This document shows, piece after piece, positions 23,964 through 46,981 of a stretch of 64,000 nucleotides of DNA. The DNA comes from a virus. Lineage: Duplodnaviria; Heunggongvirae; Uroviricota; Caudoviricetes. The stretch lies in IMG/VR virus record IMGVR_UViG_3300035670_000071; one strand, written 5' to 3'. Made by a program: the position numbers and the translations under genes. The stretch's first letter is position 1, and the number at the start of each line of letters is the position of its first letter. Under the pieces are notes generated by a model. The model had not been told where the DNA came from and ran no database searches. It saw only the letters and a list, made by a program, of their open reading frames with translations.

Positions 23964-24039
23964 TGAGCTGGACGGGATTTGAACCCGCAGCCACTCGATT
24001 AAAAGTCGAGTGCTCTAAACCAGGTTGAGCTACCAGCCC
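23964..24039 (-). tRNA. tRNA-Lys(UUU)
   Basis: Hand-folded cloverleaf; anticodon loop CTTTTAA; T-arm GCGGGTTCAAATCCCGT. Confidence 0.7.
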
Positions 24040-24042
24040 GTA

Positions 24043-24115
24043 TACCCGCACTGAGATTCGAACTCAGATTTGACGGTCCGAAGCCGACTGGACTTGTCCC
24101 TTATCCTATGCGGGT
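24043..24115 (-). tRNA. tRNA-Arg(UCG), putative
   Basis: Anticodon loop CTTCGGA with one U-U mismatch in the stem; canonical T-arm. Confidence 0.5.
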
Positions 24116-24821
24116 GTTGCCTTTCTCTGCTTCCAACATATTTACTAACTGATACACACCTGTCAATCCACCATATTCGTTACGTTCTATCCGACCTATT
24201 TTGGCTAAATTATATGTCGACAGTGTATCAAGGAATCGTTGTTTATAGACAAAGCTGATGCTCAGATATATGCTCTCTGCATTCAGCTCCTTCATATATT
24301 CATTGATTCGTTTGAACCAGTGCGTTATTTCATTGTCACGTATACGACTGAAACGTGCAGCCGATTGTCCTCCTTTCTTATGTTTGTGTGGCACTTCGCT
24401 GTGGATGTCGATGAGCTTTTTTATCTCTCCATCACTCATAACCTGTGCCCCGTAACATTCTTCAAGGTCGATGATTAATATTGTATACATCAGAGACGGC
24501 TCTCCACCGAATGTGAGAAGTTCCTTTCCACAATAATAATGCTTTGTCTTTCGCTTGTAAGGCTCTACTGTGAAATTCTCATCATCCCAAAAGAGACTAA
24601 CTCCAGATATACCAGGGTTGGAACTAAAGATAGTGTGCTATCTTATTGAGTCCCGTAAGTGTTTCGATACGGGTCTTGTTATCTTTTATGTTCCGTGCAG
24701 AACATATCTCTTTTCCAATGTCTGGTGCGTCTGCACCAACTGGTATGTGCATACTTATCATTTTCGTTCCTCCATATATTTTAGTGGACAGACTGGGATT
24801 TGAACCCAGGTTCTCTCGCAT
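24101..24821 (-). CDS. eRF1/aRF1-type peptide chain release factor (N and GGQ domains only), split across two frames at a CUU-UAG site
   Basis: N-part GTKMISMHIPV and CSARNIKDNKTR resemble the eRF1 motifs GTSMISLIIPP and TASNIKSRVNR. After a +1 shift at UAUCUUUAGU the frame stays open through YYCGKELLTF to KKGGQSAARFSRIR, which resembles eRF1 GRGGQSALRFARLR. Confidence 0.6.
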
Positions 24822-24858
24822 ATCAGGCGAGTGCGTTAACCAACTTTGCTATCTGTCC
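24785..24858 (-). tRNA. tRNA-Ile(GAU)
   Basis: Anticodon loop CTGATAT; canonical T-arm and acceptor; weak D-stem. Confidence 0.65.
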
Positions 24859-24860
24859 GA

Positions 24861-24931
24861 TGGGAATACTGAGAGTCGAACTCAGGGCTTCTGGTCTGGA
24901 GCCAGATAGGTTGCCACTACCCCATATCCCC
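24861..24931 (-). tRNA. tRNA-Trp(CCA)
   Basis: Anticodon loop CTCCAGA. Confidence 0.65.
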
Positions 24932-24932
24932 T

Positions 24933-25008
24933 TGGTGCCGCCGACGGGATTCGCACCCGTGTCCCGACATCGAAAGTGTCGGATGATTGGCTTCTACACT
25001 ACGGCGGC
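24933..25008 (-). tRNA. tRNA-Glu(UUC), CCA encoded
   Basis: Anticodon loop CTTTCGA; T-loop TGCGAAT, which carries G55. Confidence 0.65.
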
Positions 25009-25011
25009 GTA

Positions 25012-25084
25012 TGGAACCGTCGGGATTTGAACCCGAACCAATAAGGCTTCAGCCTATCGCACTCCCAGGTTATGCTACAGTTCC
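25012..25084 (-). tRNA. tRNA-Phe(GAA)
   Basis: Anticodon loop CTGAAGC. Confidence 0.7.
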
Positions 25085-25086
25085 AA

Positions 25087-25162
25087 TGGTGGGGCTGGGC
25101 GGATTCGAACCGCCGTCTCAGGTTCCAAAGACCTGAATGATTGGCCACTACACTACAGCCCT
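25087..25162 (-). tRNA. tRNA-Gln(UUG), CCA encoded
   Basis: Anticodon loop CTTTGGA; A1-C72 mismatch. Confidence 0.6.
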
Positions 25163-25169
25163 ATGTTGA

Positions 25170-25241
25170 CGCTGGTGACGGGAATTGAACCCGTGTCCCG
25201 AAGTAGACAGCCTCGGATGATAGCCACTACACCACACCAGC
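25170..25241 (-). tRNA. tRNA-Asp(GUC)
   Basis: Anticodon loop CTGTCTA; G73. Confidence 0.65.
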
Positions 25242-25244
25242 ATA

Positions 25245-25317
25245 TGGGGATGAGAGGATTTGAACCCCTGTCGAGTGGTCCCAAACCACTAATGCTTCCA
25301 AGCTACACCACATCCCC
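25245..25317 (-). tRNA. tRNA-Pro(UGG)
   Basis: Anticodon loop TTTGGGA. Confidence 0.7.
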
Positions 25318-25318
25318 G

Positions 25319-25392
25319 TGGTCTGCACTGCCTGAGTTGCACAGGCCTCCTCTGGGTTACAGCCAGTTGGCACACTCCGTGCCTTAGTGCAG
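25319..25392 (-). tRNA. tRNA-Tyr(GUA), short variable arm (type I), CCA encoded
   Basis: Anticodon loop CTGTAAC; 4-nt variable region; T-loop TGCAACT, which carries G55. Confidence 0.55.
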
Positions 25393-25397
25393 GTAAA

Positions 25398-25469
25398 CAC
25401 CCGTGCTGGGAATTGAACCCAGATTTAGAGGTTAGAAGCCTCCTGTCTTATCCTTTGGACGACACGGGT
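25398..25469 (-). tRNA. tRNA-Arg(UCU)
   Basis: Anticodon loop CTTCTAA. Confidence 0.6.
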
Positions 25470-25472
25470 ATA

Positions 25473-25549
25473 TGGGTTACAGGACGGGAGTTGCACCCGC
25501 TTCACCAGTTCCACAGACTGGTATGCTTTGCTGTTACACCACCTGTAAC
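25473..25549 (-). tRNA. tRNA-His(GUG) with encoded G-1 and CCA
   Basis: Anticodon loop CTGTGGA; G-1 pairs with C73; T-loop TGCAACT. Confidence 0.65.
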
Positions 25550-25579
25550 ATTGTCCGATGTTTTTATTTACGCATTCGA

Positions 25580-25671
25580 TGCACCTGCTGGGAGTCGAAC
25601 CCAGGGTCTCACGGAATCTTCGCCGTGAAATGGCATATAAGCCGTGTGCCTTACCACTTGGCCACAGGTGC
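25580..25671 (-). tRNA. tRNA-Ile(UAU) with a 20-nt intron-like insert at the anticodon loop
   Basis: Canonical acceptor, D and T arms; anticodon stem CACGG / CCGTG separated by CTTATAT plus a 20-nt insert that repeats CACGG. Confidence 0.5.
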
Positions 25672-25674
25672 AAA

Positions 25675-25747
25675 TGCGGATGTCGGGATTTGAACCCAAA
25701 CAAACTGCTTGGAAGGCAGTTGTGCAACCAGGTAACACTTCATCCGC
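25675..25747 (-). tRNA. tRNA-Gly(UCC), discriminator A73
   Basis: Anticodon loop CTTCCAA. Confidence 0.7.
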
Positions 25748-25750
25748 ATA

Positions 25751-25822
25751 TGGGCGAAGCAGGAGTTGAACCTGCGTCCTCCTCTTTGTAAGAGAGGTGT
25801 CATACCGTTAGACCACACGCCC
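25751..25822 (-). tRNA. tRNA-Val(UAC)
   Basis: Anticodon loop CTTACAA. Confidence 0.6.
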
Positions 25823-26143
25823 TTTATAGGTTAGCCTACTCTTGATAATTGTTCATAGAATTTGCAATCCAGAATTTTATTCTGGTATTGTTGCTCAAAT
25901 CAAATGTGTTTAGAAATTCTGAATCGCAAACCTTTGGGAACAATCACCATTGATATTGAAACGGCCTTCCGACTATTACGATGCCTGTTTCTCTATCCTG
26001 ATGTTTTACCAGTGTTTGATTCATAGTGAGTATGATTATGCAGGTTATATATAAAGTTTTCTTTTTGGAAACCCAAAGGGCACTTCCTAAGAAGCACCCC
26101 GTGGGAAAAGAGGTGATTCTATAGTTTATGTCATAGCTTGTAT

Positions 26144-26156
26144 TTATATATATTTT
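26144..26156. promoter_or_regulatory. TTTATATATATTT TATA-like motif
   Basis: Member of the recurring AT 15-mer family found in intergenic regions. Confidence 0.3.
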
Positions 26157-26160
26157 TCTA

Positions 26161-26244
26161 CGCTGAGAAGGGGAGTCGAACCCCCATATCCATTCCTGGA
26201 CGGCACCTTAGCAGAGTGCTGGGCCACCATTACCCAATCTCAGC
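26161..26244 (-). tRNA. tRNA-Ser(GCU), type II
   Basis: Anticodon loop CTGCTAA; long variable arm; G73. Confidence 0.7.
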
Positions 26245-26396
26245 ATTAATCTTTCAATGGTAGATGATGAATGATGCTATCTTCAGGCAGTGGCTCACGG
26301 AACCACATATGTATCTTGTTTTCTTTGAAGGCTCTAACTACTGCGGAGTCATCGTCTTTAAATTCAAAGTCATCTGGACCATCCTCGTCTACCATA

Positions 26397-26480
26397 CGCT
26401 GTGAGCAGGATTCGAACCTGCGACACACTTCCGTGTGCGATGGTTTTCAGGACCATTTGCTCACCATTCGCCTTCACAGC
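26397..26480 (-). tRNA. tRNA-Ser(UGA), type II, putative
   Basis: Anticodon loop CCTGAAA; long variable hairpin CACAC-GGAA-GTGTG. Confidence 0.55.
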
Positions 26481-26486
26481 ATTATA

Positions 26487-26571
26487 TAGGGGGTAAGGGA
26501 TTTGCACCCTTGTATTACCTACGTAAACCAGATTTTGAGTCTGGTGCGTTTGACTACTCCGCCAACCCCCT
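26487..26571 (-). tRNA. tRNA-Leu(CAA), type II
   Basis: Anticodon loop CTCAAAA; long variable arm; T-loop TGCAAAT. Confidence 0.65.
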
Positions 26572-26576
26572 ATGAA

Positions 26577-26661
26577 TACGGGGAGAGAGATTTGAACTCT
26601 CGTAGCACCTATGTGCAACAGCTCTTAAGGCTGCCTCGTTTGACCACTCCGACATCCCCGT
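26577..26661 (-). tRNA. tRNA-Leu(UAA), type II
   Basis: Anticodon loop CTTAAGA; long variable arm. Confidence 0.65.
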
Positions 26662-26666
26662 ATAAG

Positions 26667-26739
26667 CGGTGAGGGTGAGACTCGAACTCACAGTTCCTTG
26701 GTTAACGGCCAAGAGCCTTACCTGTTTGGCCACCTCACC
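26667..26739 (-). tRNA. tRNA-Asn(GUU), putative
   Basis: Anticodon loop CCGTTAA, with C33. Confidence 0.55.
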
Positions 26740-26744
26740 AATAG

Positions 26745-26815
26745 AGGTCCATCTGGGACTTGCACCCAGGTTTTGTGGGTTGCAGCCACACGCCTTGCTA
26801 CTTGGCCAATGGACC
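26745..26815 (-). tRNA. tRNA-Cys(GCA)
   Basis: Anticodon loop CTGCAAC; U73; T-loop TGCAAGT. Confidence 0.65.
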
Positions 26816-26818
26816 ATA

Positions 26819-26893
26819 AGCCGTCGACGGGATTTGAACCCGCATAGACCTCTTTACAGGAGAGGTGCCTCAGCCGAGTTAGACTACGACGGC
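26819..26893 (-). tRNA. tRNA-Thr(UGU), putative
   Basis: Anticodon loop CCTGTAA; enlarged D-loop. Confidence 0.5.
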
Positions 26894-26898
26894 ATATA

Positions 26899-26971
26899 TG
26901 GACACTGCGGGAATCGCACCCGCCGCCTCCTGTGTGCAAGACAGGCGTTCTACCTTATGAACTAAGTGCCC
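26899..26971 (-). tRNA. tRNA-Ala(UGC)
   Basis: Anticodon loop CTTGCAC; G3-U70 identity pair present; T-loop TGCGATT. Confidence 0.7.
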
Positions 26972-26977
26972 TTTGGA

Positions 26978-27062
26978 TACGGGAAGCAGGATTTGAACCT
27001 GCGTATCACCTACGTGAACTTGGTCCTAAGCCAAGTGTGTTTGACCGCTCCACCATTCCCGT
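26978..27062 (-). tRNA. tRNA-Leu(UAG), type II
   Basis: Anticodon loop CTTAGGA; long variable arm. Confidence 0.65.
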
Positions 27063-27075
27063 GTTAAATAAATGA

Positions 27076-27176
27076 TACCGATGGGCGGATTTGAACCGCC
27101 AAATCTCAAGGTTATGAGCCTTGCGGGATGCGAACTTTTACATTCTCCAAGTTACCCTACATCGGTATATTAAGTC
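27076..27176 (-). tRNA. tRNA-Met(CAU)-like with an extra segment of about 25 nt in the D-arm (possible non-canonical intron or pseudo-tRNA)
   Basis: Acceptor ACCGATG/CATCGGT, anticodon loop CTCATAA and T-arm GGCGGTTCAAATCCGCC are canonical, but the D region is about 27 nt too long. Confidence 0.4.
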
Positions 27177-28026
27177 AGAAATTGTTGCCAAAAAATCTTT
27201 AGAGATTATTTTGGTCTTAAATTGTTGGTATTGAACTTTCAGAAATTTTAGCAACAACGTCGGACTAATTGGCCAATGTGAGACTTGACAGTAAATTGGT
27301 TGCTGTCGTTCCCGCCAAATTACACATTCCGTTTGAGTTGTTGTGTTGCATTTTAGGTTAATCACCCATTATGGTATATGTAGAATAATCGAACTCATAT
27401 ATATAGTTTTTGGTCATCGCCGTAAATATAGAATTGAGAGTTAGGAAATGACTCACTATACAGGTCACGACATCTTCGAGCCTCACCTAAATCATTAAAG
27501 GATTGCATCACTTTGCCTATATCGGTAACGATATAGTATCTTACTTTAGTATTCCGACTTTCGATTTGGCTACACCTGGAGGCTGTATCAACTTCACTAC
27601 ATATTCCACATCTGGATTGCAGTTCCTTTTTTGTTTGAGAAGTTTAATATGATGAGCATCCCTAAAGCTATGATAATCTTGACTTTCCCACGTTATCGTC
27701 TTTTTCTGCAAGACTTCTAAAACTTTGTATGTATCCATTTTATTATGAAGGGAGTTCCGCCCTCTGCTACATAGGCTGGGTAAGACAGTTGAGGTTCTGC
27801 CAGAAGTTGACCATACATAACAGAGGTCTGCGGCCCCATTTTAAGTATTCAATATCTTCTGTAATTCTGCTTTGTATTCTGGGTCTTCTATCATTGGGGT
27901 CATATCTATTACCCGAGCACAATACCCACATCTTGTTATGCCAACTTTATCAACTGCAATAAGTATTATCTTATTTTTTGATAATAAGCATTGATGTATA
28001 TCCTCAAATCTTTTCATTGAAGAGCC

Positions 28027-28329
28027 TCATTTCTTTCTCTTTGTTATGGTCTTCTTCCGCTTTACTTTACGTCTTACTAACTTTTTTCTTTTCTTCTTAT
28101 TCGTATGCAACCATTTCGTTGTCCAATAAATAAGAAGAGTAGCGACAAGCGTAGTGACCACTGCCGTCATATAGCCATTACCTGCAATGCCAAATTTGGC
28201 GAGAAACCGATTGAGCGTAGCTGCAATCGGCTCTCGCCAACTAAGGCCAACAAGCAATGCCAATCCTGCTGTTATTCCTGTATACGCTTGTCCCTTAAAC
28301 TCTTCCTTAATGTCGTCCAATATCCGCAT
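28027..28329 (-). CDS. membrane protein with a highly basic K/R-rich C-terminal tail
   Basis: Two TM helices, then KKKRKKLVRRKVKRKKTITKRKK. Confidence 0.45.
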   Translation of the reverse strand: MRILDDIKEEFKGQAYTGITAGLALLVGLSWREPIAATLNRFLAKFGIAGNGYMTAVVTTLVATLLIYWTTKWLHTNKKKRKKLVRRKVKRKKTITKRKK

Positions 28330-28367
28330 TCGTTTCCCTTAATTGCCCTTGTTCTCAGAATAAAGAA

Positions 28368-28463
28368 TTACTTCTTTTTCTTCGAACTCTTGTTTTTCTT
28401 TGATACTTTTGCCTTAACTACAACTTTAGCTTTGGCTTCTACTTTCGATTTCTTTTTTGACAT
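28368..28463 (-). CDS. lysine-rich micro-protein (31 aa, MSKKKSKVEAKAKVVVKAKVSKKNKSSKKKK)
   Basis: Hand-translated; GGAGGCGG ribosome-binding site 5 nt upstream of the ATG. Confidence 0.45.
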   Translation of the reverse strand: MSKKKSKVEAKAKVVVKAKVSKKNKSSKKKK

Positions 28464-28477
28464 ATGTCCGCCTCCAT

Positions 28478-28525
28478 TTACTTTTTCTTTGGTGGTGTCT
28501 TTTTTGATACTGGTTTCTTTGCCAT
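28478..28525 (-). CDS. lysine-rich micro-protein (15 aa, MAKKPVSKKTPPKKK)
   Basis: GGAGGTGA ribosome-binding site upstream. Confidence 0.4.
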   Translation of the reverse strand: MAKKPVSKKTPPKKK

Positions 28526-28549
28526 ATATTCACCTCCGTTATGTTTTAT

Positions 28550-28618
28550 CTATTTTCTTTTTACTGGTTTGCCAGTAATAGGATGTGTTGGTTTTGTTTT
28601 TGGATTTACTTTAGCCAC
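28550..28618 (-). CDS. lysine-rich micro-protein (22 aa, GTG start, AKVNPKTKPTHPITGKPVKRK)
   Basis: GGAGG ribosome-binding site overlaps the end of the upstream gene; start codon is GTG. Confidence 0.3.
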   Translation of the reverse strand: MAKVNPKTKPTHPITGKPVKRK

Positions 28619-29156
28619 TTTTATTTACCTCCGTCGGTTCATCTGCATCAAAGACATCTTCGAAATCATCTATTGTCTTTGACACATCAGTCTTCTCTTG
28701 TGATACGGCAGAGGTTTCCTCTACAGTTTCAACTGTTAGTTTCACTGGTTTATTGTCCTTAAAATGTTCAAATAATTCTGGATGTGCTTTGCATACTTTC
28801 TGTCCTAATACGTTGATTAAAAACCAACTTCTGCTCTTTACAACTTCGATTTTTGCCATTGTTTTTTCCCTCACTTGTTTGTATACTTTCTTTGCCTTGC
28901 CATAGAATACTATCGCACTATCTCTTAGTATCCCATATTTCCTCAAGCACCAAGACTTCCAATACGCCACTTGTTTGACATCGATAATGATAGTCGGCGG
29001 TTCTGGTTTTTTGAAAACATTCCTAATTGCCTCTTTTGGAATATGAAATGGACTGCTTTCATCTCTGCAATTTTCGCAATACACATAGATATGTTGTCCA
29101 ATATGTAATGTGATAATTTTTCCTTTGCAGAGTCTACACCTATATTCATTCGGCAT
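28611..29156 (-). CDS. zinc-ribbon protein
   Basis: N-terminal CRLCKG...CENCRD. Confidence 0.45.
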   Translation of the reverse strand: MPNEYRCRLCKGKIITLHIGQHIYVYCENCRDESSPFHIPKEAIRNVFKKPEPPTIIIDVKQVAYWKSWCLRKYGILRDSAIVFYGKAKKVYKQVREKTMAKIEVVKSRSWFLINVLGQKVCKAHPELFEHFKDNKPVKLTVETVEETSAVSQEKTDVSKTIDDFEDVFDADEPTEVNKSG

Positions 29157-29383
29157 TCCATACCCTATACTTACCCATTATTTTATAAGTCCATATTACA
29201 TTTAGTATTTAAATGTAACGCCTTATACCCACAATATGGGCATACAACGCCTGACTTTTCTTGACCACATCTTTGGCACGGCATAGTTTACATTCTCCCA
29301 TTTACTGAAAAGGAAAGAATTATTTCCTCATTTTCTACCCAGTTCTTTCAACATATGCTTTTCAGTTTTTGAAAATAAAAAAT

Positions 29384-29524
29384 TTATTTTTTGAGTATGT
29401 TCCCAACTACCTTTTCTGCATAGCCTTCTCCGACTTTACATTTAGGGCAGAACTTTTTACTCTTCGCAGCCTTTCCACATTTAGGGCAAGACCATTTTTC
29501 ATTTTCTAATTTTGGTAATACCAT
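29384..29524 (-). CDS. zinc-ribbon miniprotein (46 aa)
   Basis: Hand-translated MVLPKLENEKWSCPKCG...CPKC; AGGAGG ribosome-binding site. Confidence 0.35.
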   Translation of the reverse strand: MVLPKLENEKWSCPKCGKAAKSKKFCPKCKVGEGYAEKVVGNILKK

Positions 29525-29536
29525 CTTGTGTTCCTC

Positions 29537-31675
29537 CTAAAAATTTATTTTCTTACCAAACCCAATTTTGTTTGGTATCTGATTATTAACTCTTTGTTGT
29601 GTGAATGATGTATTCTGTTGAGCCTTTCCTGCATTGCCATTTGTGAATGGATTATTAACTTGCATCTGTGGAACTCTTTGAGCTTGTCTTTGTGCTTTTG
29701 CTTCCTGTCTTGCTTCTCTATCTCTCGCCGCAGCTCCTCTTTGTATATTAGCAAACTGCATCTGTTTTATTCCAGCTTGTCTTCTTACTGCTGCTCTTTG
29801 TGCAGGTGTCGCACCCTGATATTTTACAGAATATGCTTTTACCCAAGTATCGTATACTTTCTGTGATTGTTCTTTATTTGATGATTCATAAAATTTAGGA
29901 ACTATACTTCCTGGTGATGTTGCTGTCGGGAAATCATATCCATATACATCCCAAGTATCATCAGCGTCGTCATAGAAATCTACTGCGAATCCTGTTCCTC
30001 TTTGTGAATTAACTAATGTTGCACCACGCTTCATATAGTTTCGCATAACTGCTTTCTTCTGAGCCATAGTTCCCTTGTTAAAACTATGCTGGTCTGCTCC
30101 ACCACCTGGTCCTGCATTGACTCCAGTTGAACCTCTATATGATGGCATATTTGCGAACTCTTTAGGAATAAGATTTCCATTCTCATCAAGTTTCCAGAAT
30201 CTTCCTTCCTCTTTAACTGGTAATCCTTGAGCCTGTCTTAATGCTCTAACTTCTGCAAGTTGAGCAAGAATTTCTGGTGAAAGAACAAATCCTTCTCCAT
30301 CACTATCTGGAATAAATTGCATATTTCCTTTAGCACCCATTGTAGATTGTGCAAATAAATTTTCTACTTTTGATGATGGTTCATAACTTCTTGTTTCAAT
30401 TCTTATATCAGATAAAGCTCTTGTTGGTGCTGCTGCAAGTAAAGCATCCGCCTCTGCCGCACTTAATGTTTCATCAACGAAATACTGAGCATAATTTTCA
30501 TCAAAGAATGTATTATAAGAATCCATTGTTCCGCCTGAACCAGCTATTGCTTGTTCAATCTTAGTTGAAGAAACAGGAGCATAAGGGTCTGTATTTGTCC
30601 CACCACCTGAAAGCAATGAAAAACCAGAACCTATACTTGATGTTGGTTCATATGATTTTGGCAACTCTGTAGCCACTGCTGGGGCATCAGCTAATGTATT
30701 ATCTAACATACCTTGTATATCTGTTGTTCCTTCAAGTAAAGAAGTCTCTGTAGTCGCTGTCATCATTGATGCATCTGCAAATAATGTAGATGGTTCACTG
30801 CTTAACACACTCGGCTCTGATGCTAATGCTGTCGTTGGAGTAGCATAAATATTTGATAATAATCTTGTAGTTCCTTCAGCAAGACCAGAGGTTGTTGTCT
30901 CTGTAGATGGTAATGATGTTGATAAAAAATCAGTATTCGTAGTTGGTAATTCCTGTGTTAAAAACGTTGAAGGTTCTGACGCAAAAGTTAATGTCTCTGG
31001 TGCTGTTGAAGATTCTATAGACACCCCTGACACATTTATTGGTTCAAGTGTTGGAAGTGGTGCTTCAGAAGTATAAGACGACATAGTAGAAAGCTTTAAT
31101 CTTGAATCTGCCGCAGCTTGTCTTTCTGCTGCAAGTTCTGCAGGAGTTTTCTCTGGTGTGACATTCAATAATGAAACAGAATTTTCAAGATTTGTTCCAA
31201 GTGTATTCAAAGAATTTGATGCTATATCTCCAAGAACGTCTCCTGTATCAACAACTTGTGTTTGTGTTGCTGCAGGAAAATAACTTGTTTGCCCAGCTAA
31301 TGCTTGTTCTTCAGCAAGTATTTCTTCTGGTGTTTTTTCTGTTGTCGTTCCAGCAGATGCCATATATTCCGTCTTAACAGAATCCATCTGTTGTTCAAGA
31401 GCTGCTGCTCTTGCACGTGCATCTGCCGCAGCTTGTCTTTCAGCTTCTAATTTTGCAGCTTGTTCAGCAGCTAATCTTTCAGCTTCTTTTCTTGCTGCTT
31501 CTTCCTCTTGAAATTTCTTTAAAGCTGCTGCCTCTGCTAATGCTGCTTTTTCTTCTTCAGAATAAGACTGTTGAGGTGATGAAGTTGAGACTGATGTCGA
31601 TAGTTGTGATGATGCAGACGAGGATTGAACCTGTCTTTCGCTTCTTCTCTCTTTGAATCTATCGAAAAATCCCAT
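29537..31675 (-). CDS. 712-aa protein with N-terminal coiled coil and long S/T/Q-rich low-complexity region
   Basis: EA-rich coiled coil KKFQEEEAARKEAERLAAEQ; remainder is low complexity. Confidence 0.55.
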   Translation of the reverse strand: MGFFDRFKERRSERQVQSSSASSQLSTSVSTSSPQQSYSEEEKAALAEAAALKKFQEEEAARKEAERLAAEQAAKLEAERQAAADARARAAALEQQMDSVKTEYMASAGTTTEKTPEEILAEEQALAGQTSYFPAATQTQVVDTGDVLGDIASNSLNTLGTNLENSVSLLNVTPEKTPAELAAERQAAADSRLKLSTMSSYTSEAPLPTLEPINVSGVSIESSTAPETLTFASEPSTFLTQELPTTNTDFLSTSLPSTETTTSGLAEGTTRLLSNIYATPTTALASEPSVLSSEPSTLFADASMMTATTETSLLEGTTDIQGMLDNTLADAPAVATELPKSYEPTSSIGSGFSLLSGGGTNTDPYAPVSSTKIEQAIAGSGGTMDSYNTFFDENYAQYFVDETLSAAEADALLAAAPTRALSDIRIETRSYEPSSKVENLFAQSTMGAKGNMQFIPDSDGEGFVLSPEILAQLAEVRALRQAQGLPVKEEGRFWKLDENGNLIPKEFANMPSYRGSTGVNAGPGGGADQHSFNKGTMAQKKAVMRNYMKRGATLVNSQRGTGFAVDFYDDADDTWDVYGYDFPTATSPGSIVPKFYESSNKEQSQKVYDTWVKAYSVKYQGATPAQRAAVRRQAGIKQMQFANIQRGAAARDREARQEAKAQRQAQRVPQMQVNNPFTNGNAGKAQQNTSFTQQRVNNQIPNKIGFGKKINF

Positions 31676-31856
31676 TTTTATTTACCTCACTTTTTCTTTT
31701 TTGATGGAAGTGTTCTCCAAGCTTCATACGTCTTTGTGCCTACCTTATATGTTCCGACAGCAAATCGTCTACCACTCTTTGTAACTTCCTTGACATTCGA
31801 ATTAGGAATGCTAACTTTCTTTTTCAATACTACAGAATAAAATTCAGTTGAACCGC

Positions 31857-32123
31857 TCATTTTTTCCCCCTCACAAACTTCTTATCAAAATTTTTGGACA
31901 TATTTTCCAAATTATCTTTGTTCGCCGCATACACACCTGCAACAACTCCCAAGCCTGGGACTCCAACAACTGCTCCAAGTATGCCTCCACCGACAGCATA
32001 ATTTACTGTCTTTCTCGTCTGCTTATCTTGAATCAATGGTTTTTGAATAGCTGTAGCTCGTTTTTTCTCGACTCTTTTCTGGCCGAGAATATTTGATACC
32101 ACATTATCGCTGTTGAAATGCAT
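31857..32123 (-). CDS. small glycine-zipper membrane protein
   Basis: GGGILGAVVGVPGLGVVAGV. Confidence 0.4.
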   Translation of the reverse strand: MHFNSDNVVSNILGQKRVEKKRATAIQKPLIQDKQTRKTVNYAVGGGILGAVVGVPGLGVVAGVYAANKDNLENMSKNFDKKFVRGKK

Positions 32124-32581: not shown

Positions 32582-33166
32582 TCATAAAAGTTCAAGGGTA
32601 TAATCACAGCTCTTCGCCAAGATGCTCTGATGAGTTACAAGAAGGACAGTGATATGCTTTTCCATACAATAGTGCCTAACTTTCTTATATAATTGAGTAT
32701 ATAGATTCTCGTCAAGACTCTTGAAAGGTTCATCAAGTAATAGAATATTGGGTTCTACAATAAGTGCCCTAATAAGCAATAGCCTTTGTTTCTCTCCACC
32801 TGAGACCTTATCTATGCTTTTACCAAGATGTTGCTCTACATTGAAGAATTGGGCCATTAAACGCATCCTGGAAGTATCATCTGCTGATACCTCCCTCCCT
32901 TCAAGTTTCAAAGGCAAAAGAAGATTCTCTTCAATAGACAACCAAGGCATCAACCTATCTTCCTGAAACATATACGACAGCTTACCTTCTGCCGTTATCT
33001 CTCCCTCAAATTCCTCAAGCCCTGCAATACACCGCAGAAGCGTTGTCTTCCCAATACCGCTTGGGCCAACGATGGCTGTCATCTTTCCTTCAGGTGCCGT
33101 AAAAGAGAAGTCCTTATGGACTTCAAGACCCCCATACTTCTTGTGGAGATTTTCAATCTTTAACAT
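32582..33166 (-). CDS. ABC transporter ATP-binding protein (NitT/TauT family)
   Basis: Walker A GPSGIGKTT, ABC signature VSGGEKQR, Walker B LLLDEP. Confidence 0.75.
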   Translation of the reverse strand: MLKIENLHKKYGGLEVHKDFSFTAPEGKMTAIVGPSGIGKTTLLRCIAGLEEFEGEITAEGKLSYMFQEDRLMPWLSIEENLLLPLKLEGREVSADDTSRMRLMAQFFNVEQHLGKSIDKVSGGEKQRLLLIRALIVEPNILLLDEPFKSLDENLYTQLYKKVRHYCMEKHITVLLVTHQSILAKSCDYTLELL

Positions 33167-33893
33167 ATGAAAAGAACCTCCTTTGTGTATATCTCAATAT
33201 CCAATCTATAACTAATCCTATCAAGACAATCAATAATACTACAGCAAACAGCTTAGGGATGTTAAGGAGTCTATAATAGTTGTTTACCATAAACCCAAGC
33301 CCATTTGTTCCTATGAACAATTCTGCAGTCACAACAATCTTCCAAGCCACGGCATTTGACCTTATGATTCCAAGAAATATTGGTGGCATCATCTGTGGAA
33401 ATATGATATATCTAAAAATTCGTTTCTTGTTTTTTGTTATCGTGCTTCCATATTCGAGAAGCTGTTTATTGATATTTGATAACCCTAATTGCACGGCAAC
33501 AAATATGTTTGGCAATATGACCATCACAATTATAAAATATGGTGTTACCCACGATAAACCAAACAATACAATTCCTATGATTGTCCATACTGCTGACGCA
33601 AGAAATTGACTTGGATAAAAAATCATATCCACATATCCTGCTATCTTAGGATAGAAATATCTCAACGAGCCTATGAATAGCCCTACAAGTGTTGCAAAGA
33701 GTAGAGAGATATACACTCTTTGTGAACTTAAAAATACATTCTCCCACGTCCTTGTCTTAAACAACAAAGAGAAAAATTCTGAAATAATTTCAGACGGAAC
33801 TGGGACTATAAAATTATCTACGCTTATCTCCCATACAATTAAGATAGCAAACGCAAAGACTATCTTAAGCCAATTCCGTCTTAGCCAATTCAT
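33153..33893 (-). CDS. ABC transporter permease (NitT/TauT family)
   Basis: Six or more TM helices; conserved EAA-like loop. Confidence 0.7.
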   Translation of the reverse strand: MNWLRRNWLKIVFAFAILIVWEISVDNFIVPVPSEIISEFFSLLFKTRTWENVFLSSQRVYISLLFATLVGLFIGSLRYFYPKIAGYVDMIFYPSQFLASAVWTIIGIVLFGLSWVTPYFIIVMVILPNIFVAVQLGLSNINKQLLEYGSTITKNKKRIFRYIIFPQMMPPIFLGIIRSNAVAWKIVVTAELFIGTNGLGFMVNNYYRLLNIPKLFAVVLLIVLIGLVIDWILRYTQRRFFSYVKD

Positions 33894-33900
33894 TGTCTTC

Positions 33901-34878
33901 TCAGATAAATAAAGTATCTGTTGTTACAATGTAGTCTAACACACCCTCAGAATAAGCTGTTCCAAGTATAGCTTCCCAAGCAAACCAATCTTTATAGTTC
34001 ATCTTGTCAAGCCTTATTTCATACTTAGCTTTTTCTAAAAGGAAGTCATAATCGTCTCCACTTTCTTCAGCTTCAAGTCGTGTTATCTCTTCAAGATGTT
34101 CCTGACTCCATTCATAGTTTGCCCTGAAATATTTTATTGCATCGTCATATATCTCAGGATTCTTTTGATATTCATCATATCTTGCAACAAAGAATTTCGC
34201 AGGAGGAACCGTCCCATAGAACTCGTTCATCTCTTTTCCAAAGTCAAGCACTGTCTTATATCTGCTATCAAAGTCTGAAGCAAATATGAAATCACTATCA
34301 AACATTGCTGCATCAATTTCTCCTTTCTCTAAGAGTGCAGGTGCATTCTCTGAATCAATTCCAATGAACTCTATTCTGTCCAAATCTAAATTATATATCT
34401 TGAACAGAACTGTCTTCATAATTAATGTAGAACCATCTGTTGCTCCTTGAATACCTATCTTTTTTCCATAGAAATCTTTTGGCCCATTGATTGAAGAACC
34501 TTTCAAAGCAACAACTTGTCCGACGCTAAATCCTTTAGGTCCTACAATCTCTCTATAATATGGTGCGAGAACTTTAAATTTCTCTCCTTCATTATAGGCA
34601 ATAGCCAAATTAACTCCACTCAATACTCCTATCGTCGGTGTTCCTTTTGTAGCAAGTGTATAAAGCTCTGCTTGATTATAGCTGCTTTCTACAATCTTTA
34701 CATTCACACTTTGTGGTTCAGGAACTTTTCCTTCGTGTAACGGATAGAATATTGGATTGAAACCAACACCTGTCACAACAAGGTTTAAGTCAGGTCTTTC
34801 ATCTGGTATCTTTGGTTCGTTTGTGCATCCTGCCAGGACCAGAATCCCCAGCATTAATGCCATTATTACATATTTCAT
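33901..34878 (-). CDS. ABC transporter substrate-binding lipoprotein (NMT1/SsuA-like)
   Basis: Lipobox LVLAGCTN; periplasmic-binding-protein-like fold inferred from family resemblance. Confidence 0.6.
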   Translation of the reverse strand: MKYVIMALMLGILVLAGCTNEPKIPDERPDLNLVVTGVGFNPIFYPLHEGKVPEPQSVNVKIVESSYNQAELYTLATKGTPTIGVLSGVNLAIAYNEGEKFKVLAPYYREIVGPKGFSVGQVVALKGSSINGPKDFYGKKIGIQGATDGSTLIMKTVLFKIYNLDLDRIEFIGIDSENAPALLEKGEIDAAMFDSDFIFASDFDSRYKTVLDFGKEMNEFYGTVPPAKFFVARYDEYQKNPEIYDDAIKYFRANYEWSQEHLEEITRLEAEESGDDYDFLLEKAKYEIRLDKMNYKDWFAWEAILGTAYSEGVLDYIVTTDTLFI

Positions 34879-36107
34879 TTTCGGCCTCCAAATCGTCTGT
34901 CATAGACGACCTTTGTCTTTTCCCCATTGAGCTTCTTATTCACGACTTCCATCGGACAGAATAGCCCAAGCCCAACTCCTTCACTCCAAGTATACTCCTC
35001 AGAGATTTCGAAGTTGTTAGCAAACGTATTTGCAAGGGTGGGTAAGACTCCCCTATCAACATACTCTGGAAGAAGTTCAACATACAACGTGAACTTTGAT
35101 TTCACGAGGTCATCGTCTTCTATCTCTTCCACAGTAATCTGATAATCACCAGTTATATATTGTTTTATTGATTTAATCGCATCATCTATTCTGTCTTTGA
35201 ATATAGTGATGCCTTTCACCTTAATCTCATCTGATGCTCTACCGACCATATAGTATTCACGCATCCCGCAATCACATATACCACCGACCCTGAATAGGTC
35301 TTCTGTGTCATACCTGATTATTGGATTCTCAGTTGAGAGCTTGGTGATAATAAGTCTGCCGACCTCACCTTCTTCAGCATACTTATTGTTGTCTGCAATG
35401 AACTCATAATAAAAATCTTTCGGAAATATATGGTATATATTGCTTTCTATAGTATGTCTGCACTGATACATTGATATAGCTGTCTCTGCCATACCATACT
35501 GCTGAATTATCTTTGCCTTTGGATAAAGCTCCTGAAGCTTCTTTCTTACAGGCCCAGACAATACGCTACCTGCCAAAAGCCACTTATCAATACCATCATA
35601 TCCAAGAATGTTTAACATAGACGCAATCTTCAAAGCTACAGGCGGGGTCGTTCTGATGGCATTTATCTTAGCTTCCATAATGACCATTGCAGTGGTCTGC
35701 AGGTCATACGGGTTTCCTAAGAACACCATAACACCTGCCTTAGCAAAGTGTCTGGCAAACGTATACGCAAGAGTATAATTATTTATTATCGCTACTCTGT
35801 CTTTTTTACTTCCCTGATTAAGATAGAAAGCTGTCTTTGCGAATCTTGTTGCAGACTGCTCAATCTCTTTCTCTGAACGATAGAATATGGCCACTTGTGA
35901 TGACGTTCCAGAAGTCAATCGTGCAAATACTGCACCTTCAATTGTATCTATACCGAAATCAACATTAGAAGTTTCAAGATTATCAAGAAGCATATGTTTT
36001 GATATAATAGGAAGACGCTTAAAATCCTTAAGGTCGTAACCCTTATACAGCTCTTTATAGAACTTTGAGTCGGCTGCCGCTAACTCTACAATGTCTCCCT
36101 TATCCAT
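34875..36107 (-). CDS. adenylate-forming ligase, PaaK/coenzyme-F390-synthetase-like
   Basis: LTSGTSS (A3), QQYGMAETA (A5), YDTEDL (A8-like). Confidence 0.6.
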   Translation of the reverse strand: MDKGDIVELAAADSKFYKELYKGYDLKDFKRLPIISKHMLLDNLETSNVDFGIDTIEGAVFARLTSGTSSQVAIFYRSEKEIEQSATRFAKTAFYLNQGSKKDRVAIINNYTLAYTFARHFAKAGVMVFLGNPYDLQTTAMVIMEAKINAIRTTPPVALKIASMLNILGYDGIDKWLLAGSVLSGPVRKKLQELYPKAKIIQQYGMAETAISMYQCRHTIESNIYHIFPKDFYYEFIADNNKYAEEGEVGRLIITKLSTENPIIRYDTEDLFRVGGICDCGMREYYMVGRASDEIKVKGITIFKDRIDDAIKSIKQYITGDYQITVEEIEDDDLVKSKFTLYVELLPEYVDRGVLPTLANTFANNFEISEEYTWSEGVGLGLFCPMEVVNKKLNGEKTKVVYDRRFGGRK

Positions 36108-36131
36108 TTTTATAAACCCTCAACGATTAAG

Positions 36132-36416
36132 TTAACAGCCAAGTTGTGAATACTTCACCTTTGACAAGTCAACAACAGTCTCAACTTCTAAATTCTTTAG
36201 AAGTTGTGTGTTTTCTGCCAACTGCAAAGTTATTTCCGATGGCTGGAAGGGTTCAAGAACGGTATGTTGCAACAATGCAACAGGGTCTTTCTGGCTAAAC
36301 TGGTCTGCTGAAGCAACTGCACCAAGGACAGTAGCTGCGGTTATTCCAGTAGCTAAAGCAATAGCTCCTATTTTCTTCATTGTTTGCCTGTCCATACCCA
36401 TCTTAAACACCCTCAC
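36132..36416 (-). CDS. small secreted protein (signal peptide; C-terminus ...YSQLGC)
   Basis: Signal peptide MKKIGAIALATGITAATVLGAVASA; TATA-like 15-mer immediately upstream. Confidence 0.45.
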   Translation of the reverse strand: MRVFKMGMDRQTMKKIGAIALATGITAATVLGAVASADQFSQKDPVALLQHTVLEPFQPSEITLQLAENTQLLKNLEVETVVDLSKVKYSQLGC

Positions 36417-36417
36417 C

Positions 36418-36432
36418 TTTATATATATATTT
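36418..36432 (-). promoter_or_regulatory. TTTATATATATATTT TATA-like promoter motif
   Basis: Exact recurring 15-mer. Confidence 0.4.
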
Positions 36433-36433
36433 A

Positions 36434-46477: not shown

Positions 46478-46702
46478 TTACCTGAAAATGTTGATAAGGC
46501 CGAATGCTGCAAGGACTATGATACCAACCGCTATCAGGCCGAAACCAGCGAACACAGTTGCCTGTGTGCTGTCCATACCTTCTGTAGTCTCATTAGATAG
46601 GCCTGTGGTTGGCAGAGCTGCTCTAACTTGAGCTACAACAAGGTAACCGACCATCAAGACGATACCGATACCAATCGCTCCGATTGCTATTTGCATAAAC
46701 AT
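46478..46702 (-). CDS. two-helix membrane miniprotein, paralog 1 of 3
   Basis: MFMQIAIGAIGIGIVLMVGYLVVAQVR...GLIAVGIIVLAAFGLINIFR. Confidence 0.5.
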   Translation of the reverse strand: MFMQIAIGAIGIGIVLMVGYLVVAQVRAALPTTGLSNETTEGMDSTQATVFAGFGLIAVGIIVLAAFGLINIFR

Positions 46703-46756: not shown

Positions 46757-46981
46757 TTATCTGAAGATGTTGATTAAACCGAATGCGGCAAGGACTATGA
46801 TTCCAACAGCTATTAGGCCGAAACCTGCGAATACTGTTGCTTGAGTTGAGTCCATACCTTCAACTGTCTCGTTTGTCAATCCTGTAGTTGGCAAGGCACT
46901 TCTAACCTGTGCAACAACAAGGTATCCTACCATTAGGACGATTCCAATTCCAATTGCTCCGATTGCTATTTGCATAAACAT
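46757..46981 (-). CDS. two-helix membrane miniprotein, paralog 2 of 3
   Basis: N- and C-terminal helices nearly identical to those of paralog 1. Confidence 0.5.
   Translation of the reverse strand: MFMQIAIGAIGIGIVLMVGYLVVAQVRSALPTTGLTNETVEGMDSTQATVFAGFGLIAVGIIVLAAFGLINIFR

What the first reader, a model, noticed from the sequence alone, without database searches (positions are those of the whole stretch)
28027..28632. Tandem run of tiny lysine-rich peptide genes (31, 15 and 22 aa), each with its own ribosome-binding site, after a membrane protein with a polybasic tail
On the minus strand between 28330 and 28632 there are three consecutive micro-ORFs: MSKKKSKVEAKAKVVVKAKVSKKNKSSKKKK, MAKKPVSKKTPPKKK and (GTG)AKVNPKTKPTHPITGKPVKRK. 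Each is preceded by GGAGG at the right spacing. They follow a 100-aa protein ending KKKRKKLVRRKVKRKKTITKRKK. The ORF track misses them because it has a 60-aa cutoff. The composition resembles protamine or histone-H1-tail DNA-condensing peptides, or polybasic membrane-active peptides, and the arrangement suggests high-level co-expression. Nothing like this mini-gene cluster is a standard annotated feature.
Basis: seen in the sequence. Interest (0 to 1): 0.6.

Follow-up and report, generated by a model that had tools for sequence, protein, structure and literature searches.

The report
Tandem lysine-rich micro-genes in phage cassette
Three back-to-back mini-genes of 15-31 codons, each with its own strong ribosome-binding site and each encoding an almost pure lysine-rich peptide, are really there and are kept in the few close relatives of this uncultivated phage-like element, but they belong to a small optional gene cassette and their function is still a guess.

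Summary
On the minus strand, ORF-A (28618..28550, GTG, 22 aa), ORF-B (28525..28478, 15 aa) and ORF-C (28463..28368, 31 aa) each follow a GGAGG by 7-9 nt. A 100-aa two-helix membrane protein (Pfam DUF5654) with a +17 tail follows. None of 20,000 shuffles gave three such units. Their ribosome-binding sites rank 6th, 7th and 15th of 83 genes. Four related haplotypes, 63-86% identical at neutral sites, keep every unit's GGAGG, start and stop. Start and stop codons are swapped for other valid ones. All indels inside ORFs are multiples of three. G's fall at codon position 3, so the frames read Lys, not Arg or Glu (AAG:AGA:GAA = 11:1:1). The units are paralogous, and relatives carry a fourth (MAKKKCGKKKK). 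The array plus DUF5654 is a ~0.6-kb accessory insertion. Five more distant lineages have no micro-ORFs, and four of them join the flanking genes directly. 52 cellular DUF5654 loci examined (nearly all DPANN archaea) lack such an array. The peptides match no family or solved structure. Best reading: translated, composition-selected Lys/Pro/Ala/Ser polycations, like H1 tails rather than protamine, probably binding a polyanion alongside the membrane protein's tail. An essential virion role is unlikely. Moderate interest.

The parts
28550..28618 (-). Micro-ORF A: GTG start, 22 aa, MAKVNPKTKPTHPITGKPVKRK, net charge +7. Its start overlaps the stop of the upstream 181-aa gene.
   Evidence: L072 encodes the identical peptide with an ATG start and a TAA stop in place of GTG and TAG, plus one synonymous change. 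L005 is 60/63 nt identical, against about 0.73 at 4-fold sites. L002 has a different SD-led K/P-rich ORF here, MAGKKQPKPWNSKPKPPLK.
28628..28632 (-). Shine-Dalgarno GGAGG of ORF-A, 9 nt before the start.
   Evidence: Predicted anti-SD duplex -10.8 kcal/mol, rank 7 of 83.
28478..28525 (-). Micro-ORF B: ATG start, 15 aa, MAKKPVSKKTPPKKK, net charge +7.
   Evidence: Relatives encode MANKPAPKPAPKTPPKKK, with an in-frame 9-nt difference caused by a 12-nt tandem duplication. The body is 90-93% identical, and the stop is TAA or TAG.
28533..28537 (-). Shine-Dalgarno GGAGG of ORF-B, 7 nt before the start.
   Evidence: Invariant in all lineages. Duplex -10.8 kcal/mol, rank 6 of 83.
28368..28463 (-). Micro-ORF C: ATG start, 31 aa, MSKKKSKVEAKAKVVVKAKVSKKNKSSKKKK, net charge +14.
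   Evidence: Relatives encode MAKKKKATVKGKPTKK(TT/NA)KSSKKKK. SD, start and stop are invariant, the body is about 67% identical, and the indels are 3 and 15 nt. A gene caller called this ORF on the Logan copy.
28471..28475 (-). Shine-Dalgarno GGAGG of ORF-C. It begins 2 nt after ORF-B's stop and lies 7 nt before the start.
   Evidence: Invariant in all lineages. Rank 15 of 83.
28330..28367 (-). Trailer and spacer between ORF-C and DUF5654. It contains the repeat AGGGCAATTAAGGGAA, and is the point where relatives carry an extra unit D (MAKKKCGKKKK, SD GGAGGTG). A weak A-U hairpin holds ORF-C's stop in its loop.
28027..28329 (-). DUF5654-family membrane protein, 100 aa, with two hydrophobic helices. 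The polybasic tail, residues 76-100, is encoded at 28104..28030 and has net charge +17.
   Evidence: Pfam PF18898, E = 2.9e-9. Hydropathy and charge. Family alignment. Its own SD is weak (AAGGGAA, rank 44 of 83).
28611..29156 (-). Upstream flanking gene: 181 aa, CxxC motifs, acidic C-terminus. This is the 5' boundary of the insertion.
   Evidence: In L073, L074, L075 and L007 its homolog is followed directly by the 58-aa gene.
27841..28017 (-). Downstream flanking gene: 58 aa with a cysteine motif. This is the 3' boundary of the insertion.

Best explanation
The three micro-ORFs are genuinely translated cistrons. Together they form a small tandem family of paralogous mini-genes: strong SD, then ATG, then an 'MAKK...' lysine-rich body, then a stop.

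They are co-transcribed with, and were acquired together with, a DUF5654 two-helix membrane protein that has a polybasic cytoplasmic tail. The whole block is a ~0.6-kb accessory cassette inserted between two conserved genes of an uncultivated, large phage-like element.

The products are short, probably disordered polycations of net charge +7 to +14. They consist almost only of Lys with Pro, Ala, Ser, Thr and Val. Selection acts on their composition and on their translation signals, not on exact sequence.

Inferred mechanism: they are made in large amounts and act by charge. They bind a polyanion in the cytoplasm, most likely nucleic acid. Anionic membrane surface is the alternative target. They act alongside the membrane-anchored polybasic tail encoded just downstream. 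Because the cassette is optional, the role is an accessory one, such as host manipulation, exclusion, or DNA or RNA handling at the membrane. It is not an essential virion function.

Shown here: the existence of the ORFs, their non-randomness, conservation of the signals, the lysine-phase signature, paralogy of the units, and the cassette nature of the block. Inferred: translation in vivo, peptide abundance, the target polyanion, and any functional link to DUF5654.
For: - Non-random: 0 of 20,000 shuffles gave three units.
- SD strength ranks 6, 7 and 15 of 83 genes, while the flanking genes rank 42-45.
- Four haplotypes are diverged to 0.62-0.86 identity at 4-fold sites. They keep GGAGG, start and stop for units B and C without exception. 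ORF-A's start switches between GTG and ATG, its stop between TAG and TAA, and ORF-B's stop between TAA and TAG.
- All indels inside ORFs are multiples of three (9, 3 and 15 nt). Spacer indels are 1-2 nt.
- ORF-A and ORF-B bodies are more conserved than neutral sites: 60/63 and 38-39/42.
- Phase signature: in-frame AAG:AGA:GAA is 11:1:1 (P = 4.6e-4), and 25:1:1 over all units. G falls at codon position 3 in 8 of 9 AAGA contexts. The frames are therefore kept reading Lys and free of acidic residues.
- The units are paralogous and vary in copy number, three here against four in relatives.
- L002 replaced unit A with a different, but again SD-led and K/P-rich, micro-ORF.
- The array occurs only together with the DUF5654 gene, as one insertion.
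- Lysine codon usage matches the element's genes, 52% against 49% AAA.
Against: - There is no expression, ribosome-profiling or peptide data.
- The distribution is narrow: one clade of four haplotypes. Five more distant lineages lack the array. One of them, L010, has a DUF5654 gene with no micro-ORFs, so DUF5654 does not need them.
- ORF-C's body evolves at about the neutral rate with no codon-position periodicity. One contig, L004, has a frameshift in its A-run.
- The units are paralogs, so the phase counts are not fully independent.
- No sequence or family similarity links the peptides to any known nucleic-acid-binding protein.
- 52 cellular DUF5654 loci examined show no such peptides, and their gene neighbourhoods give no functional hint.
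Confidence: 0.4

Rival explanations
1. Translation matters, the peptides do not. The micro-ORFs are upstream ORFs forming a ribosome relay. Strong SD sites load ribosomes onto an unstructured A-rich leader. Termination and re-initiation from unit to unit then deliver or gate ribosomes for the DUF5654 gene, whose own SD is weak.
For: - The layout is tightly packed. ORF-A's start overlaps the upstream stop, and the gaps are 24, 14 and 38 nt.
- The DUF5654 SD is weak, rank 44 of 83.
- The best-conserved features are the SDs, starts and stops, not the peptide sequences.
- The invariant 3' end of ORF-C forms a small hairpin with the stop codon in its loop.
Against: - The lysine-phase signature (11:1:1) and the exclusion of acidic residues are not needed for a relay.
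- ORF-A's peptide is conserved through silent changes.
- The last stop lies 38-47 nt from the DUF5654 start, which is long for coupling.
- The hairpin does not cover the DUF5654 SD or AUG.
- L010 expresses a DUF5654 gene from an ordinary AGGAG with no micro-ORFs.
Confidence: 0.25
2. Translated but functionless by-products. These would be young proto-genes created by tandem duplication of an SD-ATG-AAA-rich module, or leftovers of a lysine-rich terminal extension of the acquired DUF5654 gene. They would hitch-hike with the cassette.
For: - The units are paralogous and copy number varies.
- ORF-C's body drifts at the neutral rate.
- The phylogenetic range is narrow, and relatives lose the block without consequence.
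- L004 has a frameshift.
- Typical DUF5654 proteins carry charged K/E-rich N-terminal extensions just upstream of the core.
Against: - Every SD, start and stop is retained across lineages whose neutral sites are 15-35% diverged.
- ORF-A and ORF-B are more conserved than 4-fold sites.
- L002 replaced unit A with another SD-led K/P-rich ORF.
- The lysine phase is maintained.
- No frame or stop pattern lets the ORFs join the DUF5654 reading frame. An in-frame TAA lies 9 nt upstream of its ATG, seen directly in the sequence.
Confidence: 0.2
3. Leader-peptide attenuator or sensor. The lysine-codon-rich leaders would report Lys-tRNA availability, or provoke ribosome stalling or peptidyl-tRNA drop-off, like classical amino-acid leader peptides or lambda bar mini-genes. 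They might be connected with the element's own tRNA-Lys(UUU) and its VLRF1-like peptidyl-tRNA hydrolase.
For: - The ORFs are 32-48% Lys+Arg.
- The element encodes tRNA-Lys(UUU) and an eRF1-domain-2/acVLRF1-like protein inside its tRNA array.
Against: - No alternative terminator/antiterminator structure was found, only a weak A-U hairpin.
- The downstream gene is not a lysine-pathway gene.
- A-runs are at most 6 nt, and AAA and AAG are mixed as in ordinary genes.
- Three or four consecutive leaders have no precedent.
- The tRNA and VLRF1 genes are present in relatives that lack the array.
Confidence: 0.05
4. Chance ORFs in an A-rich, T-poor spacer that are not translated.
For: - The interval is 49% A, so all frames tend to stay open.
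- A 35-aa ORF in another frame and a long antisense ORF also exist.
- The peptides match nothing in the protein family and structure libraries.
Against: - The shuffle test gave 0 of 20,000.
- The SD strengths rank near the top.
- The signals are conserved, with compensating start and stop swaps.
- Indels are in frame.
- The lysine phase is locked to the SD-ATG frames.
Confidence: 0.05

Closest known systems
Small basic DNA-binding peptides of viruses: Microviridae protein J (about 20-40 aa), adenovirus Mu/pX, phage T4 internal peptides (from my own knowledge)
   Same: They are tiny, highly basic virus-encoded peptides thought to act by neutralising nucleic-acid charge, and they are made in large amounts.
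   Different: There is no sequence or profile similarity (Pfam, PHROGs and PDB all negative). The peptides lack the hydrophobic C-terminal anchor of protein J. They use Lys rather than Arg. They come as a tandem multi-copy array and are not cleaved from a precursor. They lie in an optional cassette away from any recognisable structural module, and related lineages lack them.
Histone H1 C-terminal tails and bacterial H1-like proteins: Chlamydia Hc1/Hc2, Pseudomonas AlgP KPAA repeats, mycobacterial HupB tail (from my own knowledge)
   Same: The composition is similar: Lys, Pro, Ala, Ser, Thr and Val with almost no acidic or aromatic residues. Motifs such as KPAPKPAPKTPPKKK resemble S/TPKK and KPKA repeats. 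Evolution conserves composition while sequence changes quickly.
   Different: Those are tails or repeats within proteins of more than 100 aa that also have folded domains. Here the peptides are free-standing, 11-31 aa, and each has its own ribosome-binding site. No Pfam hit was found.
DUF5654 (PF18898) small membrane proteins of DPANN archaea
   Same: The downstream 100-aa protein is a member. The family as a whole attaches a charged segment to the two-helix core, on the same side of the membrane if both helices span it.
   Different: Cellular members carry a mixed K/E-rich N-terminal extension and a short C-terminus. The window's clade has no N-extension and a purely basic C-tail. None of 52 cellular loci examined has SD-led polybasic micro-ORFs nearby.
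Amino-acid leader peptides (hisL, pheL, thrL) and lambda bar mini-genes (from my own knowledge)
   Same: They are very short SD-led ORFs upstream of another gene and are enriched for one amino acid's codons.
   Different: There are no alternative terminator or antiterminator hairpins. The downstream gene is unrelated to lysine metabolism. There are three or four consecutive units. Peptide composition is under phase-specific constraint.
Tiny basic ribosomal proteins: bL36, bL34, bS22, bL37, bTHX, eL41 (from my own knowledge)
   Same: They have a similar size, 24-46 aa, and extreme basicity. The array lies about 1.3 kb from a translation-related gene block (tRNA array, release-factor-like gene).
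   Different: NCBIfam, Pfam and PDB searches found no match. Those proteins are Arg/Lys mixed with conserved motifs and are single-copy.

Membership tests
DUF5654 (PF18898), for the 100-aa protein | Match to the Pfam profile above the gathering score | tested here: met
   37.2 bits against a cut-off of 23.8, E = 2.9e-9, covering profile positions 3-69 of 71. The conserved W31, R32 and I35 align with family members.
DUF5654 (PF18898), for the 100-aa protein | Two hydrophobic helices flanking a conserved 'SWREPI' motif | tested here: met
   Hydropathy peaks at residues 13-30 and 49-69, and the motif LSWREPI is present.
Microviridae protein J or other catalogued phage small DNA-binding proteins | Profile similarity to a Pfam or PHROG family | tested here: not met
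   No hits at E <= 10 for any peptide or for concatenated peptides.
Microviridae protein J or other catalogued phage small DNA-binding proteins | Presence in the virion and DNA binding | not testable with these tools
   This needs particle proteomics and binding assays. The optional nature of the cassette argues against an essential virion role.
Protamine-like or H1-like nucleic-acid condensers | Composition: Arg-rich for protamine; Lys/Ala/Pro/Ser-rich for an H1 tail | tested here: inconclusive
   The tally is K28, V8, P7, S6, A5, T4, R1, E1. This fits H1-tail composition and not protamine. Composition alone does not establish membership, and there is no Pfam hit.
Leader-peptide transcription attenuators | Mutually exclusive terminator and antiterminator hairpins after the leader ORF | tested here: not met
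   Only a weak A-U hairpin was found (z = -2.4). No terminator-like site lies within 28330-28660, and terminator-like sites are not enriched in 27000-32000.
Leader-peptide transcription attenuators | The downstream operon belongs to the pathway of the enriched amino acid | tested here: not met
   The downstream genes are DUF5654 and a 58-aa cysteine-motif protein.
Phage holin, considered for the 100-aa protein | Small membrane protein with a charged C-terminal tail | tested here: met
   Two hydrophobic helices and a +17 tail.
Phage holin, considered for the 100-aa protein | Genomic linkage to an endolysin in a lysis cassette | tested here: not met
   The only muralytic domain (SLT) is at 6078-6680 on the other arm, 22 kb away. 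In addition, the family is mainly chromosomal in DPANN archaea.
Tiny basic ribosomal proteins | Match to NCBIfam or Pfam models, or to ribosome chains in the PDB | tested here: not met
   No hits.

The most novel reading that the evidence does not exclude
A previously undescribed class of virus-encoded 'mini-polycations'. This would be a tandem, copy-number-variable family of independently translated genes of 11-31 codons. Their Lys/Pro-rich products would work together with a membrane-anchored polybasic tail (DUF5654) to capture or compact nucleic acid at the cytoplasmic face of the membrane, for example to exclude incoming DNA or to organise the element's own genome. Such a class would be invisible to standard gene callers. 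A bolder variant is that the host is a DPANN archaeon or a similar ultra-small cell. Hints for this are the distribution of DUF5654 and a tRNA with a ~20-nt insertion at the canonical intron site. In that case these would be the first such peptides from a virus of that kind of host.
Probability: 0.25. Interest if true: 0.65.

Novelty: new variant of a known kind. Interest (0 to 1): 0.42.

Why it matters
If the peptides are made and act as proposed, this is a clean natural example of functional genes far below annotation cut-offs (11-31 codons). They would be organised as a duplicating tandem family and selected for composition rather than sequence. That would add a free-standing, multi-copy form to the short list of viral charge-neutralising peptides. 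It would also give a first functional handle on DUF5654, an uncharacterised membrane-protein family otherwise nearly confined to DPANN archaea. In practical terms, it shows that SD-anchored micro-ORF scans combined with comparative phase tests can recover such genes from metagenomic viruses. The limits are real. The array is confined to one narrow clade, it is dispensable in relatives, and its function is only inferred.

Tried and rejected
- **Deposited phages:** DNA and protein searches of 50,697 records found nothing, whether with the region itself, the 712-aa and 891-aa neighbours, or the DUF5654 protein.
- **IMG/VR:** scans with the DUF5654 protein, the 181-aa protein, a family alignment and the invariant B-C junction found nothing.
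- **Exact-sequence look-up:** the peptides are not in the protein collection.
- **Peptide similarity:** Pfam, PHROGs, NCBIfam and PDB searches gave nothing even at E <= 10.
- **Rfam:** no RNA family in or near the interval.
- **One gene read through stops:** rejected. The A-B spacer is 24 nt in the window, 23 nt in L072 and 26 nt in L002, so the frame relation is not conserved. The DUF5654 frame has an in-frame TAA 9 nt upstream of its ATG.
- **Antisense 157-aa ORF (28105-28578, + strand):** rejected. It is a Phe-rich mirror image of the Lys codons, it overlaps a Pfam-supported gene, and it is shorter in relatives.
- **Holin reading of the membrane protein:** not supported by synteny.
- **A-run avoidance test:** not significant.
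- **Structure that hides the DUF5654 start:** none found.
- **Conserved neighbourhood of cellular DUF5654 genes:** heterogeneous and uninformative.
- **Literature:** searches for DUF5654 and for comparable lysine-rich phage micro-genes found nothing relevant.
- **Rest of the 106-kb source contig:** attempts to retrieve it, to find capsid or terminase genes, failed.
- **Host domain:** left unresolved.
Full report
**1. What is there**

- **ORF-A:** GTG 28618 to TAG 28550, 22 aa, MAKVNPKTKPTHPITGKPVKRK.
- **ORF-B:** ATG 28525 to TAA 28478, 15 aa, MAKKPVSKKTPPKKK.
- **ORF-C:** ATG 28463 to TAA 28368, 31 aa, MSKKKSKVEAKAKVVVKAKVSKKNKSSKKKK.
- **100-aa ORF:** 28329..28027, ending in a 25-residue tail of net charge +17.

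Each micro-ORF is preceded by GGAGG, at 9, 7 and 7 nt. ORF-A's start overlaps the stop of the upstream 181-aa gene (GTGGCTAA). The gaps between cistrons are 24, 14 and 38 nt. A 58-aa gene starts 9 nt after the 100-aa gene. No promoter-like or terminator-like site falls inside the interval. The block therefore reads as one tightly packed operon.

**2. More than chance**

The whole 64-kb window holds only 30 GGAGG+start combinations on both strands. Three of them are these, and they are the only lysine-rich ones. In 20,000 dinucleotide-preserving shuffles of 28330-28660, none gave three SD-led ORFs and six gave two. By predicted pairing to the anti-SD, the three sites rank 6th, 7th and 15th of 83 genes. 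The flanking 181-aa, DUF5654 and 58-aa genes rank 45th, 44th and 42nd, at the median. A relaxed scan found no other SD-led polybasic micro-ORF in the window.

**3. The surrounding element**

The window has two convergent gene blocks, a 23-tRNA array (23964-27062) and the following genes:
- a release-factor-domain/acVLRF1-like gene and Ro60/TROVE;
- a NinI-like phosphatase, several HNH endonucleases, an RNA ligase and an SLT transglycosylase;
- a tyrosine integrase, ABC-transporter genes and a 4044-aa ORF.

The content is phage-like. No relative exists among 50,697 deposited phage genomes or in IMG/VR. I found no capsid or terminase gene in the window and could not retrieve the rest of the 106-kb source contig.

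The host is unresolved. The SLT domain and the phage families suggest a bacterium. Two hints point the other way. The DUF5654 family is almost entirely from DPANN archaea. One tRNA appears to carry a ~20-nt insertion at the canonical intron site.

**4. Comparative evidence**

Exact and near-exact protein look-ups recovered the window's own contig plus three further haplotypes of the same clade: L002/L003/L004, L005/L006 and L072. Four-fold degenerate sites in the flanking genes are 0.62-0.86 identical between lineages. Neutral positions have therefore had time to change. Against that background:

| Unit | SD / start / stop | Body | Other changes |
|---|---|---|---|
| B | GGAGG and ATG invariant; stop TAA or TAG | 90-93% identical | in-frame 9-nt length difference, from a 12-nt tandem duplication giving KPAP-KPAP |
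| C | all invariant | about 67% identical | indels of 3 and 15 nt |
| A | start GTG or ATG; stop TAG or TAA | 60/63 nt identical in L005 | L072 encodes the identical peptide with one further synonymous change; L002 has a different SD-led K/P-rich micro-ORF, MAGKKQPKPWNSKPKPPLK |

Indels in the spacers are 1-2 nt, whereas all three inside ORFs are multiples of three. The relatives carry a fourth unit, D (MAKKKCGKKKK, SD GGAGGTG), between ORF-C and DUF5654.

**5. The units are paralogs**

In L005, units C and D share 45 nt at their 5' ends (76%) and 40 nt at their 3' ends and trailers (70%). Units B and C share 33 nt around the SD and start (76%). In the window, A and B share ACGGAGGT.AATA. The window's trailer begins like the C trailer and ends like the D trailer, which fits loss of D by recombination between the repeats. 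The array is therefore a small tandem gene family that grows and shrinks by unit.

**6. A coding signature specific to lysine**

In a merely purine-rich stretch, the G's that interrupt A-runs should fall in any phase and give AAG (Lys), AGA (Arg) and GAA (Glu) about equally. In the frames set by the SD-ATG signals:
- The counts are 11:1:1 in the window (chi-square P = 4.6e-4) and 25:1:1 over all distinct units.
- 8 of 9 G's in an AAGA context sit at codon position 3 (17 of 18 over all units).
- The other two frames would read Arg-rich or Glu-rich.

The units are paralogous, so these counts are not fully independent. Even so, the signal favours selection on what the peptide is made of, not just on the act of translation.

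Lysine codon use (52% AAA) matches the element's long genes (49%). A test for avoidance of long A-runs was not significant. ORF-C's body shows no codon-position periodicity in its substitutions. That is expected if only composition is constrained, but it is also compatible with weak constraint.

**7. The array is part of an optional cassette**

More distant syntenic relatives were found through the 712-aa and 181-aa neighbours, at 42-58% identity.
- In L007/L008, L073, L074 and L075 the 181-aa homolog is followed within about 10-20 nt by the 58-aa gene. There is no DUF5654 and there are no micro-ORFs.
- L010 has a DUF5654 gene of 119 aa with a 43-residue K-rich tail. It is inserted after the 58-aa gene and has no micro-ORFs.

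In the window's clade, about 0.6 kb (ORF-A through DUF5654) is therefore an insertion between two conserved genes. The micro-ORFs are known only in company with this DUF5654 gene.

**8. The DUF5654 family**

An exhaustive search found 39 representative clusters at E <= 0.001. Typical members have a mixed-charge K/E-rich N-terminal extension, a two-helix core around SWREPI and a short C-terminus. A minority, including the window's clade and L010, have no N-extension but a long basic C-tail.

Sixty genomic loci were almost all from Woese-, Pace- and Nanoarchaeota, with one from a CPR bacterium. None of the 52 loci examined has an SD-led polybasic micro-ORF nearby. Their neighbourhoods are heterogeneous. 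A holin role is not supported, because the only muralytic gene lies 22 kb away on the other arm.

**9. What the peptides resemble**

They hit nothing in Pfam, PHROGs, NCBIfam or the PDB, even at E <= 10. No Rfam family overlaps the region. The composition is K28, V8, P7, S6, A5, T4, N2, H1, I1, G1, R1, E1. That is like histone-H1 tails and bacterial H1-like repeats. It is not protamine-like, since protamines are Arg-rich. It is also poor in the bulky hydrophobic residues typical of membrane-lytic peptides.

**10. Interpretation**

I consider it well supported (about 0.8) that these are real, independently initiated cistrons maintained by selection. How they work is inferred.
- **Preferred reading (0.4):** abundant Lys-rich polycations that bind a polyanion, most likely nucleic acid, in the cytoplasm, acting with the membrane-anchored polybasic tail encoded downstream. 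The role would be accessory.
- **Ribosome relay or uORF reading (0.25):** this explains the conserved signals and the weak DUF5654 SD. It does not explain the lysine phase or ORF-A's silent-substitution pattern.
- **Functionless young by-products of duplication (0.2):** this fits the narrow range and ORF-C's drift. It does not fit the retention of every signal.
- **Lysine-sensing attenuator (0.05) and pure chance (0.05):** both are disfavoured.

**11. Verdict**

The arrangement, a tandem, copy-number-variable family of SD-led genes of 11-31 codons for polycations next to a polybasic-tailed membrane protein, has no described counterpart that I could find. Conceptually it sits next to known small basic viral peptides, so I rate it a new variant of a known kind. 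Interest is moderate (0.42). The feature is real and neat, and annotation overlooks it, but it is confined to one narrow clade, dispensable in relatives and functionally untested.

Noticed in passing
window 27722-27842 (-); also L002 6482-6602, L005 6168-6288, L007 11672-11790, L010 4548-4668: A ~100-nt non-coding block (…ACCGCAGACC…GGCAGAACCTCAACTGTCTTACCC…GGGCGGAA…) is nearly invariant, even between lineages whose flanking proteins are only about 50% identical. It folds into a long stem in which 5 pairs show compensatory changes. No Rfam match at E <= 1. It is a candidate structured RNA. With a Ro60/TROVE gene in the window, a Y-RNA-like partner is conceivable.
   Followed up: partly
window 25580-25671 (-): An odd tRNA sits inside the 23-tRNA array. 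Rfam aligns it as a tRNA with a UAU anticodon and a ~20-nt insertion at the canonical 37/38 intron position. ARAGORN instead reports a 6-nt anticodon loop and no assignable anticodon. The insertion is too short for a group I intron, so it may hint at archaeal-type splicing or at an unusual decoding tRNA.
   Followed up: partly
window 24101-24490 (-): A 129-aa protein with eRF1 domain 2 / acVLRF1 (Vms1-like peptidyl-tRNA hydrolase) similarity is embedded in the tRNA array. It is conserved in relatives L003, L005, L006 and L007.
   Followed up: no
window 46478-46702 and 46757-46981 (-): Two tandem, 96%-identical 74-aa ORFs each have two long hydrophobic helices and a strong ACGGAGGTA ribosome-binding site (ranks 8 and 9 of 83). 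They could be an abundant small membrane or structural protein present in two copies.
   Followed up: partly
window 32582-38804 (-): A phage-like element carries a complete ABC importer set (NMT1-like binding protein, permease, ATPase), an AMP-binding enzyme and a tyrosine integrase. The block is syntenic in distant relatives L007 and L008, which add a peptidase U32.
   Followed up: no
window 48401-60535 (-): A 4044-aa ORF whose only Pfam hit is a single DUF2341 domain. The neighbouring 891-, 935- and 731-aa ORFs have no Pfam or PHROG hits.
   Followed up: no
window 18013-19608 (+): A Ro60/TROVE plus vWA protein (PHROG 850) is encoded a few kb from the tRNA array.
   Followed up: no
L004 about 395-420 (ORF-C region): One relative contig has a 1-nt deletion in the A-run near the start of ORF-C, which splits the ORF. 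It also has a second 1-nt deletion in the T-run after the ORF. These are either homopolymer assembly errors or natural slippage variants.
   Followed up: no
window 29183-29284 (-) and relatives (L007 10339-10482, L010 2757-2897, L011 2927-3067): Several very small CxxC zinc-ribbon-like ORFs of 33-47 aa lie just upstream of the cassette. The 46-47-aa ORF is conserved across distant relatives.
   Followed up: no
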